From a virus (Duplodnaviria; Heunggongvirae; Uroviricota; Caudoviricetes): a stretch of 8,759 bases of DNA. Below the pieces are notes generated by a model, which was not told the origin of the DNA, made no database searches, and worked only from the letters and a program-made list of their open reading frames with translations. The stretch lies in IMG/VR virus record IMGVR_UViG_2690316243_000011. The stretch is one strand, 5' to 3'. The translations under genes and the position numbers were made by a program. Within the stretch, counting starts at the first letter, position 1; the number at the start of each line of letters is the position of its first letter. Shown in pieces: positions 802-8,355 of this stretch.

Positions 802-804
802 GCC

Positions 805-1105
805 CACAAGAAAACCCCTCCGGAGAGGGGCTAAAGCCGCGTATCTGTATCATCATGCACATGGTGCCGGGTGCCTCCCGGTGAGTTCAGCCCGGTGCCA
901 CTAAACCCGCGTCATTCTCGTTTTGATAATCAGAGATTATACCGTCACCAGTCGCCCCTCCGCTCAGGGGGATTCACCATGCGAAATTTTTTTAACAAAT
1001 GCCCAGTCTGACAGGCAACTGTCAACTTACTGAATTGTGAGCAACATAGCATTTAACGGGGAACCTGTTTTCTGCAGTAAAAAGGCCCACCGGAGCGGAT
1101 GGGCC
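805..1105 (-). repeat. Copy L of a diverged structured non-coding module (hairpin-rich, bounded by terminator-like hairpins)
   Basis: Aligns with 1293-1540 at roughly 65-70 percent identity (by eye). Shared blocks include cccctccggagaggg, tgccgggtgcctcccggtga, gcccctccgc-N-cagggggattcaccatgc, ttttaacaaa, caactgtcaac, ctgaattgtgag and aaaaaggccc. No conserved ORF. Confidence 0.6.
808..830 (-). terminator. Terminator-like hairpin at the 3' end of module L (minus strand)
   Basis: Minus-strand RNA reads cccctc-tccg-gagggg (6-bp GC stem, 4-nt loop) followed by UUUUCUUG. Confidence 0.5.
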
Positions 1106-1292
1106 TGGAAGGATAGCGGTCATGTGATGCCGGTTTCCCGGTAACTCAGCACCGGTATCTGAGTCAACGTTTTCTCTACTGGGTCATTTCCGATACGCCC
1201 TGCCTGCTGACAGGCTTTCATCACATCTGAAAATATAGCACCCTGACTGATACTGTAGTACCTAAGGTTCCAGAAACTGTGATGTATCCGGC

Positions 1293-1540
1293 ACAGAAAA
1301 GCCCCTCCGGAGAGGGCTGGAGAGTGGCGCTATGTGCCATTGCATGATGCCGGGTGCCTCCCGGTGAATTCAGTACCAGCACCTGAATCCGCGATTATCC
1401 CATATACCTACTCGCTGATTGCCCCTCCGCACAGGGGGATTCACCATGCCAGTTTCTTTTAACAAACTCCCCGCAAAACAGACAACTGTCAACCGTCTGA
1501 ATTGTGAGACATTTAAAAAAAAGGCCCGCAAAAGCGAGCC
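1293..1540 (-). repeat. Copy U of the same structured non-coding module, directly downstream of tRNA-Arg(UCU)
   Basis: Same conserved blocks and hairpins as 805-1105. Its 3' end has a weaker terminator-like hairpin (ccctc-cgga-gaggg, 1303-1316) followed on the minus strand by GCUUUUCUG. Confidence 0.6.
1514..1540 (-). terminator. Intrinsic terminator immediately downstream of the tRNA cluster
   Basis: Minus-strand RNA: ggcucgc-uuuu-gcgggcc (7-bp stem with one G-U pair) followed by UUUUUUUUU (plus-strand A-run 1514-1522); lies 15-40 nt past the tRNA 3' end. Confidence 0.65.
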
Positions 1541-1554
1541 AGGGAAAATAAGTG

Positions 1555-1631
1555 TGGCGCGTTGTACTGGATTCGAACCAGTGACCGATTGCTTAGAAGG
1601 CAATTGCTCTGTCCGGCTGAGCTAACAACGC
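1555..1631 (-). tRNA. argO: tRNA-Arg (anticodon UCU), copy A, 77 nt, CCA encoded
   Basis: Reverse complement folds as a cloverleaf: acceptor GCGTTGT/ACAACGC, D-stem GCTC/GAGC, anticodon stem ATTGC/GCAAT with loop CTTCTAA, T-stem ACTGG/CCAGT with loop TTCGAAT, discriminator G, CCA. Symbol assigned only by analogy with the ileZ-argN-argO cluster of Stx phages (from memory). Confidence 0.85.
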
Positions 1632-1641
1632 TGAATACCGA

Positions 1642-1662
1642 NNNNNNNNNNNNNNNNNNNNN
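1642..1662. other. Assembly gap (21 N)
   Basis: Run of n at 1642-1662; the flanking sequences on the two sides differ, so the true distance and linkage are unknown. Confidence 0.95.
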
Positions 1663-1706
1663 TTTCAGTATAAGGCTCTGCCGGAAGGAATCTGGAAGAA
1701 TGAATA

Positions 1707-1783
1707 TGGCGCGCTGTACTGGATTCGAACCAGTGACCGATTGCTTAGAAGGCAATTGCTCTGTCCGGCTGAGCTAACAACGC
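1707..1783 (-). tRNA. argO: tRNA-Arg (anticodon UCU), copy B, 77 nt, CCA encoded
   Basis: Identical to copy A except one base in the 3' acceptor strand (ACAGCGC versus ACAACGC), which gives a G-U pair. Its upstream flank differs from that of copy A. Confidence 0.85.
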
Positions 1784-1796
1784 ATGATGCAGATAA

Positions 1797-1873
1797 TGGA
1801 CCGCCATCGGGGACTTGAACCCCGCGCAGCCAGCTTCGAAGGCTGGCGCTCTTTCCTGATGAGCTAATGGCGG
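1797..1873 (-). tRNA. argN: tRNA-Arg (anticodon UCG), 77 nt, CCA encoded
   Basis: Cloverleaf: acceptor CCGCCAT/ATGGCGG, D-stem GCTC/GAGC, anticodon stem CCAGC/GCTGG with loop CTTCGAA, T-stem CGGGG/CCCCG with loop TTCAAGT, discriminator T, CCA. The 5' base is C, which is unusual but paired. Confidence 0.8.
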
Positions 1874-1880
1874 TATGTGA

Positions 1881-1956
1881 TGGTGGCCCTTGCTGGATTT
1901 GAACCAGCGACCTGGCGATTATGAGTCGCTCGCTCTCACCACTGAGCTAAAGGGCC
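1881..1956 (-). tRNA. ileZ: tRNA with CAU anticodon, Ile2 (lysidine)-type by similarity to E. coli ileX; a tRNA scanner would probably call it Met
   Basis: GGCCCTTTAGCTCAGTGGTGAGAGCGAGCGACTCATAATCGCCAGGTCGCTGGTTCAAATCCAGCAAGGGCCACCA: anticodon loop CTCATAA, T-loop TTCAAAT, CCA encoded. It resembles the tRNA-Ile2 sequence as I remember it. Confidence 0.85.
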
Positions 1957-3586: not shown

Positions 3587-4441
3587 TTATGACGAATTTA
3601 CCACAGATTCCGGAAAAATCAACCTAGTTACCTTTTTTAACTGCCGCTCAGCCCATGCTTCTTCAATATCAAACCGGGTCACCAGCGCATCATAAAATTT
3701 CTTAACTGTTTTTTCCCATGACGCGCGTGTTATCTGGTTTGTCACCTCGCATATAGCATTAAATGCCTCCGTTGATGGTAGTCTTTCATAGCCACGACCA
3801 CCACAACGCTGGCAGTCTCTGATAACAGGCATACCACGTTTTACCGACTCTTCACGATGAATGGCGACACCACGCCCACGGCAATCCTTACAGGCGGTGG
3901 AAACCTCACCCTTTCCGCCACACTCCGGACAGGCAACTTTTACCACCTCTCTGACTTTTTTCCATTCTTCCCAGTAAGACGGATACACACCTTTCGTACA
4001 CTTTGCCCATACCGGCGGCTTACCATCCGGATACTGGATCTTGTTTGTAAAAACCTCGCTTTCAATAAATTTTTTTCCGTGACAGCAGGGGCACTGTTTT
4101 TTGCTCGCCGCGCTACGGGCATAATCTTCAAACGCATACGAAGCCATAATACGCATCACTGCCGGTTTTATTTCTGCCGGGAGTTTTCTTAACGCCGCCA
4201 CGCGATCACACCGACTGAGTGCATATTCTGTCAGCAATTCTGTTGCCCGCTCTCTGTCATTCATACTAATGCCCATTTTCCCAAGGAACGCAGAAACCCC
4301 CATCTCAGCCCGATTCTGTGTCATGCCCTGCGCGGCCATCACATCAGTGATACTCAGCGCATCTTTCGACGTTGAGGCCGATGCATCAGTCAGGCCGGGG
4401 GATTTTGGGGAGTAGTATTTCGGTAAATCTTCCAGTTTCAT
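3587..4441 (-). CDS. Q: Late-gene antiterminator Q, Q82/QuuQ-type, with CxxCxGxG zinc-finger repeats; complete copy
   Basis: 284 aa. Motifs CPCC, CPECGGKG, CKDCRGRG and CQRCGGRGYERLPS, with a C-terminal segment WEKTVKKFYDAL resembling phage 82 Q / QuuQ as I recall them. Its ATG overlaps the stop of the upstream rusA fragment (ATGA). Position downstream of rusA is as expected for Q. Confidence 0.7.
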   Translation of the reverse strand: MKLEDLPKYYSPKSPGLTDASASTSKDALSITDVMAAQGMTQNRAEMGVSAFLGKMGISMNDRERATELLTEYALSRCDRVAALRKLPAEIKPAVMRIMASYAFEDYARSAASKKQCPCCHGKKFIESEVFTNKIQYPDGKPPVWAKCTKGVYPSYWEEWKKVREVVKVACPECGGKGEVSTACKDCRGRGVAIHREESVKRGMPVIRDCQRCGGRGYERLPSTEAFNAICEVTNQITRASWEKTVKKFYDALVTRFDIEEAWAERQLKKVTRLIFPESVVNSS

Positions 4442-4551
4442 TTTTTGACCTGCCCTTCAAGCATTATGGGATAAATCTTCACCCCCAGACGTCCACCAGA
4501 TACTGGCTGAGCACGAACGATATTGATTTCATCAAACTGCTCATCGTCCAT
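4438..4551 (-). pseudogene. Duplicated 3' fragment of rusA (37 codons)
   Basis: Translates MDDEQFDEINIVRAQPVSGGRLGVKIYPIMLEGQVKK, matching the C-terminus of the full RusA ORF with a few substitutions. It begins at the duplication junction and ends in an ATGA overlap with Q copy 1. Confidence 0.6.
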
Positions 4552-5300
4552 TANAATTTCTTAACTGTTTTTTCCCATGACGCGCGTGTTATCTGGTTTG
4601 TCACCTCGCATATAGCATTAAATGCCTCCGTTGATGGTAGTCTTTCATAGCCACGACCACCACAACGCTGGCAGTCTCTGATAACAGGCATACCACGTTT
4701 TACCGACTCTTCACGATGAATGGCGACACCACGCCCACGGCAATCCTTACAGGCGGTGGAAACCTCACCCTTTCCGCCACACTCCGGACAGGCAACTTTT
4801 ACCACCTCTCTGACTTTTTTCCATTCTTCCCAGTAAGACGGATACACACCTTTCGTACACTTTGCCCATACCGGCGGCTTACCATCCGGATACTGGACCT
4901 TGTTTGTAAAAACTACGCTTTCAATAAATTTTTCCCCATAGCAACAAGGGCACTGCTTTTTACTCGCTGCGCTGCGGGCATAATCCTCAAAAGCGTACGA
5001 AGCCATAATGCGCATCACTACCGGTTTTATTTCTGCCGGAAGTTTTCTCAACGCCGCCACACGATCGCACCGACTGAGTGCATAATCTGCCAGTAATTCT
5101 GTTGCCCGCGCCCTGTCATTCATACTGATGCCCATTTTCCCCAGGAACGCAGAAAACCCCATCTCAGCCCGATTCTGTGTCATGCCCTGCGCGGCCATCA
5201 CATCAGTGATACTCAGCGCATCTTTCGACGTTGAGGCCGATGCATCAGTCAGGCCGGGGGATTTTGGGGAGTAGTATTTCGGTAAATCTTCCAGTTTCAT
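4551..5300 (-). CDS. Q: Second copy of antiterminator Q, C-terminally truncated at the duplication junction (249 aa, last codon contains the N)
   Basis: ATG at 5300 overlaps the RusA stop (ATGA). The protein is co-linear with Q copy 1 up to ...WEKTVKK, then a TTN codon and TAA. It lacks the last ~35 residues of copy 1. Confidence 0.5.
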   Translation of the reverse strand: MKLEDLPKYYSPKSPGLTDASASTSKDALSITDVMAAQGMTQNRAEMGFSAFLGKMGISMNDRARATELLADYALSRCDRVAALRKLPAEIKPVVMRIMASYAFEDYARSAASKKQCPCCYGEKFIESVVFTNKVQYPDGKPPVWAKCTKGVYPSYWEEWKKVREVVKVACPECGGKGEVSTACKDCRGRGVAIHREESVKRGMPVIRDCQRCGGRGYERLPSTEAFNAICEVTNQITRASWEKTVKKX

Positions 5301-7346: not shown

Positions 7347-7460
7347 CAGAATCCTTCCAGATAAATAGCACTCCCCTGTTCGGGGTCCATCCCTCTTCTC
7401 CCTGCGCGCTACTTAAGTATTTTTGATTCTATTCCGGCACCATCTAAAACTTCAAACGCG

Positions 7461-7495
7461 TTGAAAATAAAAACAAAAACCCGCCGAAGCGGGTT
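7461..7495 (-). terminator. Strong intrinsic terminator downstream of hok
   Basis: Minus-strand RNA: aacccgc-uucg-gcggguu (7-bp stem) followed by UUUGUUUUUAUUUUC. Confidence 0.75.
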
Positions 7496-7563
7496 AAGTG
7501 TGGGTGCATTGAGGATGCCTGACCCATCAGAGGTGGCGAGGGATTTCTCCCCCGCCTGGTCTC

Positions 7564-7719
7564 TTACTCCTCAGGTTCGTAAGCTGTGAAGACAGCGACC
7601 TCCGTCTGGCCGGTTCGAATTCGTACCTCGCAGAGGTCTTTCCTCGTTACCAGTGCCGTCACTATGACGGTTAAACAGATGACGATCAGGGCGATTAACA
7701 TCGCCTTTTGCTGCTTCAT
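7564..7719 (-). CDS. hokD: Hok-family membrane toxin (type I toxin), HokD/RelF-like
   Basis: Translation MKQQKAMLIALIVICLTVIVTALVTRKDLCEVRIRTGQTEVAVFTAYEPEE (51 aa) matches HokD/RelF as I remember it and is clearly Hok/Gef family. An in-frame upstream ATG at 7776 would add 19 residues (the 70-aa ORF in the track); I prefer the internal start. Confidence 0.85.
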   Translation of the reverse strand: MKQQKAMLIALIVICLTVIVTALVTRKDLCEVRIRTGQTEVAVFTAYEPEE

Positions 7720-8010
7720 AGCCTGCTTCTCCTTGCCTTTCGGCACGTAAGAGGCTAACCTAGATTTGCCGTTCATAGATTGAGCCTCAGATTAATGTTA
7801 AGCGTCTTGCCGGACGCGTAATGTTAACTGGGGCTTTTCTCTATCTGCCTTTTGGTGTTCATGCCTGAGACAGATAGCCTCAAGCACCCGCTGCAATTCT
7901 ACTTAACTCTCCTTTTCCCGCAAACCGTTTTTATCCCCAGCGGCAAATCGAATACACCACCAGCGCCACCGCCATCGCAATTCCTACCGTTGTTAATGCT
8001 TCAGGCCAGG

Positions 8011-8355
8011 TCATCGTAAAATATCCTCCACGCTTATCAGTCCGTTCCGCTCCAGATAACTCATCGCCTTATCCGGTAATTTGCAGTCTGGCTTCGCTTT
8101 CCTCAGTTGCCAGGTTAACTGCTTTACCAGCATGGTTAACTCATCGACCAGACGCTGATATCCCACTGGTTTGTATTCATGCAATTTACCGGCTGGCTCT
8201 GCTGCCAGCGATACCAGTGCGATTTCCAGAACAGCAATATCCATCTTATATGTGCGGATGATGTCATGGTCGATTGTGCCCGGTATGCACAGTCTCTGTG
8301 CTTCAATAGTCTCCTCTGCGTGAGCTATTAACTGCTCTCTGGTAAAAGTCGTCAT
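8011..8355 (-). CDS. Hypothetical protein (114 aa), paralogous in its N-terminal half to the upstream 55-aa ORF
   Basis: ATG at 8355 overlaps the stop of the upstream ORF (ATGA). Shares the N-terminus MTTFTREQL and the motif [17 protein letters not shown] with the 55-aa protein ([24 protein letters not shown]). Confidence 0.55.

What the first reader, a model, noticed from the sequence alone, without database searches (positions are those of the whole stretch)
7461..7900. hok toxin locus with hok/sok-like mRNA architecture, not linked to relBE
The Hok protein matches HokD/RelF as I recall it, but relE and relB, which precede hokD in K-12 Qin (from memory), are replaced here by a different cassette. 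A candidate promoter (TTGCGG-16-TAGAAT, 7923-7896) would start the transcript near 7888. The predicted 5' end (GGGUGCUUGAGG, 7877-7889) is complementary to a segment just before the terminator (CCUCAAUGCACCC, 7502-7514). That 5'-3' pairing is the hallmark of the tac/fbi fold of regulated hok mRNAs, so this may be a complete, self-regulated type I toxin locus; an antisense Sok-like RNA on the plus strand around 7780-7880 is possible but I could not define it.
Basis: partly seen in the sequence, partly recalled or inferred. Interest (0 to 1): 0.6.

Follow-up and report, generated by a model that had tools for sequence, protein, structure and literature searches.

The report
Complete prophage hok/sok toxin-antitoxin cassette
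This is an intact copy of the well-known hok/sok RNA-controlled toxin cassette, carried by a lambda-like prophage; it is common in E. coli, a near-identical relative has been tested experimentally, and the relBE-linked K-12 copy is the truncated exception.

Summary
On the minus strand, 7923-7470 holds a full hok/sok cassette: promoter, hok mRNA of about 418 nt, in-frame mok ORF, hok CDS identical to K-12 HokD, and a terminator.

The first 12 nt of the mRNA pair with 7514-7502 in the lowest-energy fold. Only 5 of 2000 shuffled 3' UTRs pair as well, and a U-A to C-G compensatory change occurs in Photorhabdus homologues. Removing the 3' end in silico gives the published "open" pairings.

It lies on the plus strand: -35 at 7733-7738, -10 at 7756-7761, RNA about 7768-7842. 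Its -10 hexamer is the one mutated to silence sokW in phage Sp5. The hairpin region almost lacks G.U pairs, as expected if both strands must fold.

The finding is not novel. Rfam's sok model scores 112 bits. The leader is about 95% identical to the tested hokW-sokW locus. It occurs in 4112 of 5426 complete E. coli genomes, against 1167 with the K-12 relE-hokD junction.

One minor lead: a 12-nt patch at the Sok 5' end occurs as discrete alleles on near-identical cassettes.

The parts
7918..7923 (-). hok promoter, -35 TTGCGG
   Evidence: Read from the sequence. It lies 16 nt from the -10. This part varies among homologues: conservation drops upstream of about 7908.
7896..7901 (-). hok promoter, -10 TAGAAT
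   Evidence: The motif GTTAAGTAGAAT is conserved in most near homologues. It lies 6 nt upstream of the conserved 5' end GGGUGC.
7472..7889 (-). Full-length hok mRNA, about 418 nt. The 5' end is inferred and the 3' end is placed at the terminator U-tract.
   Evidence: Position 1 of the Rfam model aligns at 7889. The fold has z = -6.8. Across 36 homologues, 86.5% of cells are paired, against 39-45% in the slid controls.
7878..7889 (-). tac element (translational activator), GGGUGCUUGAGG
   Evidence: It pairs with fbi in the full-length fold and with ucb in the 3'-truncated fold. It is nearly invariant in homologues, except position 4.
7830..7836 (-). ucb (upstream complementary box / anti-SD), AAGCCCC
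   Evidence: In the full-length fold, GCC.C pairs with the mok Shine-Dalgarno GAGG. In the truncated fold it pairs with tac nt 1-8. It is paired in 99.6% of cells.
7785..7788 (-). mok Shine-Dalgarno, GAGG
   Evidence: It lies 8 nt upstream of the ATG at 7776. It is sequestered by ucb in the full-length fold and paired to dcb in the truncated fold.
7564..7776 (-). mok ORF (70 aa, in frame with hok, same stop codon)
   Evidence: It is 89% identical to the MokW/HokW ORF of a 933W-type Stx2 phage and 45% identical to the R1-type Mok/Hok. It matches PHROG 251, 'MokW-like host killing', at 7.7e-33.
7751..7756 (-). dcb (downstream complementary box), AGCCUC
   Evidence: It pairs with GAGGCU of the mok SD in the truncated fold. 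These pairs are invariant or nearly so in all 36 homologues. It overlaps the Sok -10 on the other strand, as described for R1 (PMC9841398).
7729..7733 (-). hok Shine-Dalgarno, AGGAG
   Evidence: It lies 9 nt upstream of the hok ATG. The conserved CAAGGAG is seen in alignments A3 and A4. It overlaps the Sok -35 on the other strand.
7564..7719 (-). hok toxin CDS, 51 aa
   Evidence: 100% identical to K-12 HokD. Pfam HOK_GEF scores 81.6 bits against a cut-off of 22.
7579..7581 (-). Tyr47 codon UAC inside UUACGAA, the TadA A-to-I editing motif (edited A at 7580)
   Evidence: The sequence is identical to K-12 hokD, which is edited Tyr to Cys at this aligned position (PMC5630033). TTACGAA is conserved across alignment A3 and in the R1 type. 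Editing was not tested here.
7502..7514 (-). fbi (fold-back inhibition) element, CCUCAAUGCACCC
   Evidence: It forms 12 bp with tac, with U7508 bulged. Position 4 changes U-A to C-G in 7 sequences.
7470..7495 (-). Intrinsic terminator of the hok mRNA (AACCCGC-UUCG-GCGGGUU plus U-tract)
   Evidence: Terminator scan. The hairpin folds at -11.5 kcal/mol. Conservation of the cassette ends at about 7475.
7733..7738 (+). sok promoter, -35 TTGCCT
   Evidence: It lies 17 nt from the -10. It is positionally homologous to TTGCGC of the R1-type locus.
7756..7761 (+). sok promoter, -10 TAACCT
   Evidence: The same hexamer in the same context was mutated, to GAGCCG, to make the promoter-less sokW construct. 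I deduced this from primers YO-421/422 of PMC8621323.
7768..7842 (+). Predicted Sok antisense RNA, about 75 nt: single-stranded 5' tail, then a long hairpin (7782-7836) and a UUUUCUCU tract
   Evidence: The fold is -31.4 kcal/mol with z = -5.2. It is complementary to the mok SD and start codon. G.U pairs make up 0.7% of the overlapped helix, against 15% elsewhere. The sokW Northern probe YO-592 covers the homologous stretch. The transcription start is inferred, give or take about 4 nt.
7762..7773 (.). Hypervariable 12-nt patch (mok codons 2-5, which is also the start region and 5' tail of Sok)
   Evidence: There are 11 alleles among 66 near-identical cassettes. Divergence is bimodal, either 0 or at least 40%, even when the rest differs by less than 2%. 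Copies within one genome differ.

Best explanation
The region 7923-7470 is an intact hok/sok-family type I toxin-antitoxin cassette. Its toxin is HokD and its leader is of the hokW/sokW type. It sits as a moron in the early-right (nin-to-Q) region of a lambdoid prophage.

The proposed mechanism is inferred by homology to R1 hok/sok and to Sp5 hokW-sokW.

1. A weak promoter (7923-7896) makes a hok mRNA of about 418 nt.
2. In the full-length RNA, the 5' tac element (7889-7878) is clamped to the 3' fbi element (7514-7502). The ucb box (7836-7830) covers the mok Shine-Dalgarno (7788-7785). In this state the RNA is neither translated nor bound by Sok.
3. Slow 3' trimming removes fbi. tac then pairs with ucb, and the mok SD switches to dcb (7756-7751).
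4. The RNA now either binds the short-lived plus-strand Sok RNA (about 7768-7842) and is destroyed by RNase III, or is translated when Sok has decayed. In that case translation of mok is coupled to translation of hok, and the 51-aa Hok depolarises the inner membrane.
5. TadA editing of Tyr47 (A7580) to Cys probably tunes toxicity.

In a prophage the likely roles are retention of the element and, as shown for hokW, help with lysis after induction.

What is shown here: the sequence elements, the predicted alternative folds, covariation, and near-identity to a tested locus. What is inferred: transcription starts, processing, Sok action and toxicity of this copy.
For: - Family match: Rfam RF01794 scores 112.4 bits (gathering score 59), covering model positions 1-157 at 7889-7714. 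Pfam HOK_GEF scores 81.6 bits. PHROG 251, MokW-like, matches at 7.7e-33.
- Toxin: 100% identical to K-12 HokD.
- Closed fold: the full-length lowest-energy fold pairs nt 1-12 with 7514-7502 and ucb with the mok SD, z = -6.8.
- Open fold: the truncated fold gives tac/ucb and SDmok/dcb. These are the pairings described for R1 (PMC9841398).
- Control: an R1-type locus folded the same way gives the known 5'-3' clamp.
- Chance test: 5 of 2000 shuffles and 0 of 313 other 12-mers match the tac-fbi duplex energy.
- Covariation over 36 homologues from Escherichia, Photorhabdus, Pantoea, Erwinia, Kluyvera and others: 86.5% of cells paired against 39-45% when slid; 37 pairs with changes on both sides against 12-20. 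The one variable tac position (position 4) covaries with fbi and is the bulged base in the tac/ucb helix.
- Sok: the promoter is positionally homologous to that of R1, and the -10 equals the hexamer mutated in the promoter-less sokW construct. The tail-plus-hairpin fold has z = -5.2. G.U pairs are depleted in the overlapped helix, 3 of 451 against 516 of 3420.
- Relative: the promoter, leader and upstream small ORF are nearly identical to the hokW locus, which is a working type I toxin-antitoxin system (PMC8621323).
- Conservation: the cassette is a discrete block, from about 7908 to 7475, with variable flanks.
Against: - There are no expression data for this copy.
- Both promoters are poor matches to the sigma-70 consensus and were not picked up by the scan.
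- No terminator separates the cassette from the upstream prophage genes, so read-through transcripts with a different 5' end are possible.
- Chromosomal hok loci of K-12 and some wild strains were reported not to mediate post-segregational killing (Pedersen & Gerdes 1999, as cited in PMC5630033 and bioRxiv 10.1101/2025.08.07.668861).
- The structure used for the covariation counts was derived from the window sequence itself, which favours it in the slid controls.
- The cells counted are not phylogenetically independent.
Confidence: 0.88

Rival explanations
1. The cassette is structurally intact but functionally silent. It would be a relic that no longer kills or stabilises anything, like the chromosomal hok loci reported inactive in K-12.
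For: Chromosomal hokA, hokB and hokC loci did not mediate post-segregational killing, and hokA, C, D and E were reported inactive (cited). Both promoters are weak consensus matches.
Against: The K-12 loci have identifiable lesions. hokD there lacks the whole leader. Here every element is present. The cassette is conserved as a block in thousands of genomes. Compensatory changes and G.U avoidance indicate ongoing selection on RNA structure on both strands. The closely related hokW-sokW locus is active (PMC8621323).
Confidence: 0.12
2. hok is expressed mainly by read-through from the prophage early-right operon after induction, rather than from its own promoter. It would then act as a lysis accessory gene and not as an autonomous addiction module.
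For: No terminator lies between the upstream ORFs (ending at 7931) and the cassette. hok has the same orientation as RusA, Q and the late region. For hokW, toxin production rose and sokW fell after mitomycin C in a RecA-dependent way, and phage release halved without the locus (PMC8621323).
Against: The -10 TAGAAT sits at a fixed distance from an invariant 5' end, and both are conserved while the sequence further upstream is not. The tac element can only play its described role at or near a 5' terminus. The same cassette occurs in other phage-genome positions and on plasmids. The two modes are not exclusive.
Confidence: 0.25
3. The 5'-3' complementarity is a chance match, and the locus is just a hok ORF with no special RNA architecture.
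For: The match is only 12 bp, and G+C-rich short matches can arise by chance. 5 of 2000 shuffles did as well.
Against: The same pairing is found in almost all of 48 homologues, at the same relative position. There are compensatory U-A to C-G and G-C to A-U changes. The Rfam model match and the R1 control agree.
Confidence: 0.01

Closest known systems
hokW-sokW of Sakai prophage 5 / 933W-type Stx2 phages (Takada et al. 2021, PMC8621323)
   Same: - The promoter, the 27-aa upstream ORF, tac, ucb, the mok SD, dcb, the sok promoter (TAACCT) and the Sok hairpin are nearly identical.
- Probe YO-597 from that paper is 30/30 identical to window 7733-7762.
- The Mok/Hok ORF is 89% identical.
- Both lie in lambdoid prophages.
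   Different: - The toxin C-terminus is the HokD type (VFTAYEPEE) rather than HokW (VFVDYESEK).
- A different allele sits at the 12-nt patch at mok codons 2-5 / Sok 5' end: AACGGCAAATCT here, CTGAACACATGT in hokW.
- The 3' end differs: a clear intrinsic terminator follows fbi here, where the hokW sequence diverges.
- The position in the phage genome differs: nin/Q region here, ea region near P22 EaA-like genes in the Stx2 phage.
hokD (relF) of the K-12 Qin prophage, third gene of relBE-hokD
   Same: The Hok protein is identical. The 3' UTR, fbi and terminator are nearly identical, as are the downstream neighbours rem and ydfU (DUF968).
   Different: K-12 has relE ending about 70 nt upstream. 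It lacks the promoter, tac, ucb, the mok start, the Sok target and the sok gene. Homology starts about 17 nt before the hok ATG. The K-12 junction is present in 1167 of 5426 genomes, against 4112 with the full leader.
hok/sok (parB) of plasmid R1, the archetype
   Same: The order of elements and the alternative pairings are the same. The sok promoter sits at the same place, overlapping the hok SD and dcb. mok is in frame. The TTACGAA motif is present. Both match Rfam RF01794, at 87 bits for the R1 type and 112 bits here.
   Different: Mok/Hok is only 45% identical. The Sok/target hairpin is 19-20 nt longer here. tac is GGGUGCUU here and GGCGCUU in R1. The fbi helix carries a bulge here. The replicon is a prophage, not a plasmid.

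Membership tests
[quoted passage not shown] | A Hok/Gef toxin ORF of about 50 aa with an N-terminal transmembrane helix | tested here: met
   Pfam HOK_GEF scores 81.6 bits against a cut-off of 22. The protein is 100% identical to K-12 HokD.
[quoted passage not shown] | An mRNA leader homologous to the family, from the 5' end to the hok start codon | tested here: met
   cmscan scores 112.4 bits against a gathering score of 59, E = 1.3e-25, over the full model 1-157.
[quoted passage not shown] | An upstream overlapping mok reading frame with its own SD, through which hok is translated | tested here: inconclusive
   The ORF at 7776-7564 with SD GAGG is present and conserved. Translational coupling itself cannot be tested in silico.
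[quoted passage not shown] | Long-range tac-fbi pairing of the 5' end with the 3' UTR in the full-length mRNA | tested here: met
   Lowest-energy fold. Shuffle test, 5 of 2000. Present in homologues with compensatory changes.
[quoted passage not shown] | Alternative pairings: ucb with the mok SD in the closed form, then tac with ucb and the mok SD with dcb in the 3'-processed form | tested here: met
   Predicted folds of the full-length and truncated RNA. The helices are 99.6% paired and invariant, so there is no covariation for or against them.
[quoted passage not shown] | A cis-encoded antisense Sok RNA with its own promoter, a single-stranded 5' tail and a terminator hairpin, complementary to the mok translation-initiation region | tested here: met
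   All the sequence features are present. The -10 equals the mutated sokW -10. G.U pairs are depleted, showing the helix is constrained on both strands. Transcription was not tested.
[quoted passage not shown] | 3' exonucleolytic processing that activates the mRNA, and RNase III cleavage of the Sok-hok duplex | not testable with these tools
   This needs Northern blots or RNA-seq after rifampicin, and an rnc mutant.
[quoted passage not shown] | Toxicity of Hok and its neutralisation by Sok | not testable with these tools
   The identical HokD protein was used as a toxic control in bioRxiv 10.1101/2025.08.07.668861. hokW-sokW was tested in PMC8621323. This copy is untested.
relBE-hokD operon arrangement of K-12 Qin | hokD lies directly downstream of relE, is co-transcribed with relBE, and has no hok leader or sok gene | tested here: not met
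   There is no relB or relE in the window. A full leader is present, whereas K-12 homology begins about 17 nt before the ATG.

The most novel reading that the evidence does not exclude
The 12-nt patch at 7773-7762 may be under diversifying, allele-type selection. It covers mok codons 2-5, which is also the start region and 5' recognition tail of Sok. Different alleles would act as specificity ("immunity") types. This would let several near-identical hok/sok cassettes in one genome (median 2, up to 8 per E. coli genome) each be controlled only by their own Sok, so that loss of one prophage is still punished.

Evidence so far:
- There are 11 alleles among 66 cassettes.
- Divergence is bimodal, either 0 or at least 40%, on backbones less than 2% divergent.
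- Co-resident copies in the few genomes I could inspect carry different alleles.

Relaxed constraint plus recombination is not excluded. The sample was also biased towards the window's own allele.
Probability: 0.3. Interest if true: 0.4.

Novelty: already known. Interest (0 to 1): 0.15.

Why it matters
The practical value is for annotation rather than discovery.

- The hok CDS of this cassette is routinely labelled hokD in RefSeq. Its leader and the sok gene carry no annotation at all: "none" was listed under the match in the listed hits, eight records identical to the window.
- Readers who know only K-12 may therefore think hokD is normally part of relBE. The numbers here show the reverse. 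The autonomous hok/sok cassette is the common form, and the K-12 fusion is a truncated derivative.
- If the allele idea for the Sok 5' patch held up, it would bear on how many copies of one addiction module can coexist without cross-protection. That remains only a lead.

Tried and rejected
- The simple sigma-70 scan found neither the hok nor the sok promoter. Both were placed by conservation and by homology to R1 and hokW instead.
- NCBIfam Hok models scored below their cut-offs for the 51-aa toxin, 48.5 bits against 73. I relied on Pfam, PHROGs and direct identity to HokD.
- The Rfam "sok" hit is on the hok-mRNA strand and spans the whole leader. An R1-type control behaves the same way. The hit shows family membership but says nothing about the strand or ends of Sok, so I did not use it for that.
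- Column-based pair counts for the outer half of the tac-fbi helix are degraded by a one-base register shift, between sequences with the bulge and Photorhabdus sequences without it. The per-sequence duplex table is the better view of that helix.
- I looked for published statements on how K-12 hokD is truncated. Pedersen & Gerdes 1999 is not in the library, so the truncation is documented here by alignment alone.
- Chance complementarity was considered and rejected.
- I did not run large protein-database, structure-prediction or fold searches. The identity of the toxin was never in doubt.

Full report
**What is in the sequence**

The window is the early-right to late-control part of a lambdoid prophage, read on the minus strand.
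- Small nin-like ORFs of unknown function lie at 8754-7931.
- The hok locus follows.
- Next come a rem-like ORF (7346-7083), a DUF968/YdfU gene (6736-5678) and RusA (5677-5297).
- Two Q antiterminator genes lie at 5300-4551 and 4441-3587.
- A DNA methylase lies at 3055-1997.
- Four tRNA genes lie at 1956-1555, followed by two STnc100 sRNA copies and the start of a SASA/NanS-like esterase.
- The best whole-window matches are E. coli prophages at 94-96% identity.

- TTGCGG is at 7923-7918 and TAGAAT at 7901-7896, with a 16-nt spacer.
- CCTCAATGCACCC is at 7514-7502.
- An intrinsic terminator is at 7495-7470.
- The 51-aa ORF at 7719-7564 is 100% identical to K-12 HokD.
- It is the C-terminal part of a 70-aa in-frame ORF starting at 7776, which is mok.

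**Is the 5'-3' pairing more than chance?**

Yes.
- The lowest-energy fold of 7889-7470 (-169.2 kcal/mol, z = -6.8) pairs nt 1-12 with 7514-7502, with U7508 bulged.
- The isolated duplex is -21.1 kcal/mol. Only 5 of 2000 dinucleotide-preserving shuffles of the 3' UTR do as well, and none of the 313 other 12-mers of the mRNA.
- In 48 homologous loci from Escherichia, Shigella, Kluyvera, Citrobacter, Photorhabdus, Pantoea and Erwinia, the 5' end finds the same kind of partner just before the 3' end in nearly every case.
- Photorhabdus copies have GGGCGCUUGAGA paired with UCUCAAGCGCCC. These are compensatory changes at positions 4 and 12.
- I projected the window's fold onto a 36-sequence alignment. 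86.5% of cells form standard pairs, against 39-45% when partners are slid. 37 pairs show changes on both sides, against 12-20 in the slid controls.
- An R1-type hok/sok locus, folded the same way as a positive control, gives the known clamp.

**The alternative fold**

Deleting the last 46 nt (fbi and the terminator) changes the predicted structure in the way described for R1 (PMC9841398).
- In the full-length fold, GCC.C of the ucb box (7836-7830) covers the mok Shine-Dalgarno GAGG (7788-7785).
- In the truncated fold, tac nt 1-8 pair with AAGCCCC, and GAGGCU pairs with AGCCUC at 7756-7751, the dcb box.
- These helices are invariant in all 36 homologues, so they give no covariation either way.
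- One detail is telling. The only tac position that varies, position 4, covaries with fbi and is exactly the base left bulged in the tac/ucb helix.

**The antisense gene**

On the plus strand, TTGCCT (7733-7738), a 17-nt spacer and TAACCT (7756-7761) sit where the R1-type locus has TTGCGC-17-TATCCT. In both cases the promoter overlaps the hok SD and dcb.

Downstream, the predicted RNA has an unpaired tail of about 10-14 nt. A long hairpin (7782-7836) and UUUUCUCU follow. The fold is -31.4 kcal/mol with z = -5.2. The RNA is complementary to the mok SD and start codon.

Two further lines of support go beyond resemblance.
- In the study of hokW-sokW (PMC8621323), the mutagenic primers YO-421/422 change exactly this hexamer, TAACCT to GAGCCG, to make the promoter-less sokW. 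The Northern probes cover the homologous stretches. YO-597 is 30/30 identical to window 7733-7762.
- The hok-mRNA helix that overlaps the Sok hairpin (7835-7783) has 3 G.U pairs in 451 paired cells. All other helices together have 516 in 3420. A helix that avoids G.U pairs is what is expected when the complementary strand must form the same hairpin. The cells are not phylogenetically independent, so the nominal p-value should not be taken literally.

The Sok start (about 7764-7770) and end (about 7840) are inferred. The length of about 75 nt exceeds the roughly 64 nt I recall for R1 Sok. The reason is that this lineage has a 19-20-nt longer hairpin.

**Relation to known loci**

- Rfam RF01794 matches 7889-7714 at 112 bits, against a gathering score of 59. 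Note that this model lies on the hok strand.
- The differences from hokW are the toxin C-terminus (HokD type), the 3' end after fbi, and a 12-nt patch at mok codons 2-5.
- K-12 hokD shares everything from about 17 nt before the hok ATG onwards. Upstream of that point it has relE instead.
- Across 5426 complete E. coli genomes, the promoter plus leader (186 nt) is present at 80% coverage or better in 4112. The median is two copies per genome and the maximum is eight. No annotation lies under the listed best hits, which are identical to the window.
- The K-12 relE-hokD junction is present in 1167 of those genomes.
- The same 70-aa Mok/Hok occurs unchanged in at least 26 IMG/VR contigs. HokD-type cassettes also occur on plasmids.
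- "Not linked to relBE" is therefore the rule and not an oddity. The K-12 arrangement is the truncated derivative.

**The cassette as a module**

Among 66 near homologues, conservation is almost complete from about 7908 to 7475 and drops on both sides. Local alignments to other prophages break at about 7475, 7503 and 7908-7924. This fits a mobile moron that has recombined into different phage backgrounds and positions.

**Mechanism and rivals**

The best explanation is the standard hok/sok mechanism described above, with confidence about 0.88.
- Functional silence is a possible but weak rival, because all elements are intact and appear to be under selection.
- Read-through from the prophage early operon after induction is plausible as an additional mode. 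There is no upstream terminator, the orientation is the same, and the hokW data point that way. It does not replace the autonomous promoter, whose -10 and start point are conserved while the sequence further upstream is not.
- Chance complementarity is excluded.

**A small lead**

Positions 7773-7762 are by far the most variable part of the cassette.
- They occur as discrete alleles, 11 in 66 sequences.
- Among cassette pairs that differ by less than 2% elsewhere, 71% are identical in the patch and 29% differ at 40% or more of its positions.
- In the few genomes with several copies that I could inspect, co-resident copies carry different alleles.
- The patch lies in or next to the Sok 5' tail, the part I recall as starting target recognition in R1.
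- This could reflect selection to avoid cross-talk between copies. It could also be relaxed constraint plus recombination.
- The sample is small and biased toward the window's allele.

**Verdict**

The thing itself is a textbook system, common in E. coli prophages, with a close relative already characterised. Novelty: already known. Interest: low, 0.15.

Noticed in passing
window 7762-7773: A 12-nt hypervariable patch (mok codons 2-5 / Sok start and 5' tail) occurs as discrete alleles on otherwise near-identical cassettes. Co-resident copies in one genome differ. This may act as a specificity determinant.
   Followed up: partly
window 7783-7835 (minus-strand helix overlapping the Sok hairpin): G.U pairs are almost absent here, 3 of 451 paired cells, against 15% in all other hok-mRNA helices across 36 homologues. 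This is a strand-symmetry signature of a functional antisense hairpin.
   Followed up: yes
window 7579-7581: The Tyr47 codon UAC sits in UUACGAA, the TadA A-to-I editing motif. The sequence is identical to K-12 hokD, which is edited Tyr to Cys in vivo (PMC5630033). The motif is conserved in all homologues aligned, including the R1 type.
   Followed up: partly
window 802-1011 and 1289-1478, minus strand: Two copies of the sRNA family STnc100 (RF02076, 161 and 124 bits) lie just downstream of the prophage tRNA cluster and upstream of the SASA/NanS-like esterase. This is the slot where stx genes sit in Stx phages.
   Followed up: no
window 1555-1956, minus strand: Four prophage tRNA genes: CAT (called Met by ARAGORN, annotated Ile in a related prophage), Arg-TCG, and two copies of Arg-TCT. 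The related E. coli 042 prophage has only three.
   Followed up: no
window 3587-4441 and 4551-5300, minus strand: Two tandem Q antiterminator genes of 284 and 249 aa, both with Antiterm and zinc-finger-like domains. The upstream one lacks the end of the Antiterm domain. Some related phages are also annotated with two Q genes.
   Followed up: no
window 7426-7455, minus strand: A promoter-like site, TTGAAG-18-TAGAAT, lies directly after the hok terminator and upstream of the rem-like ORF (7346-7083). It was the only site the consensus scan reported in this region.
   Followed up: no
window 7931-8014, minus strand: A 27-aa hydrophobic ORF ([27 protein letters not shown]) overlaps the stop of the 114-aa ORF by ATGA and ends 8 nt before the hok -35. 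The same ORF precedes hokW in a 933W-type phage. It has no family hit.
   Followed up: partly
window about 7475 and about 7908; loci L068-L147: Homology to other prophages breaks right at the two ends of the hok cassette (7475, 7503, 7908-7924). This suggests the cassette is exchanged as a unit between phage backgrounds.
   Followed up: partly
loci L006, L012, L039, L050, L058, L065: Near-identical E. coli-type hok cassettes sit on very short contigs labelled Xanthomonas pisi and Acinetobacter idrijaensis, and on short-to-medium contigs (about 2.6 to 23 kb) of MAGs labelled Veillonella, Haemophilus, Collinsella and Candidatus Scatousia. These are most likely contamination or mis-binning.
   Followed up: no
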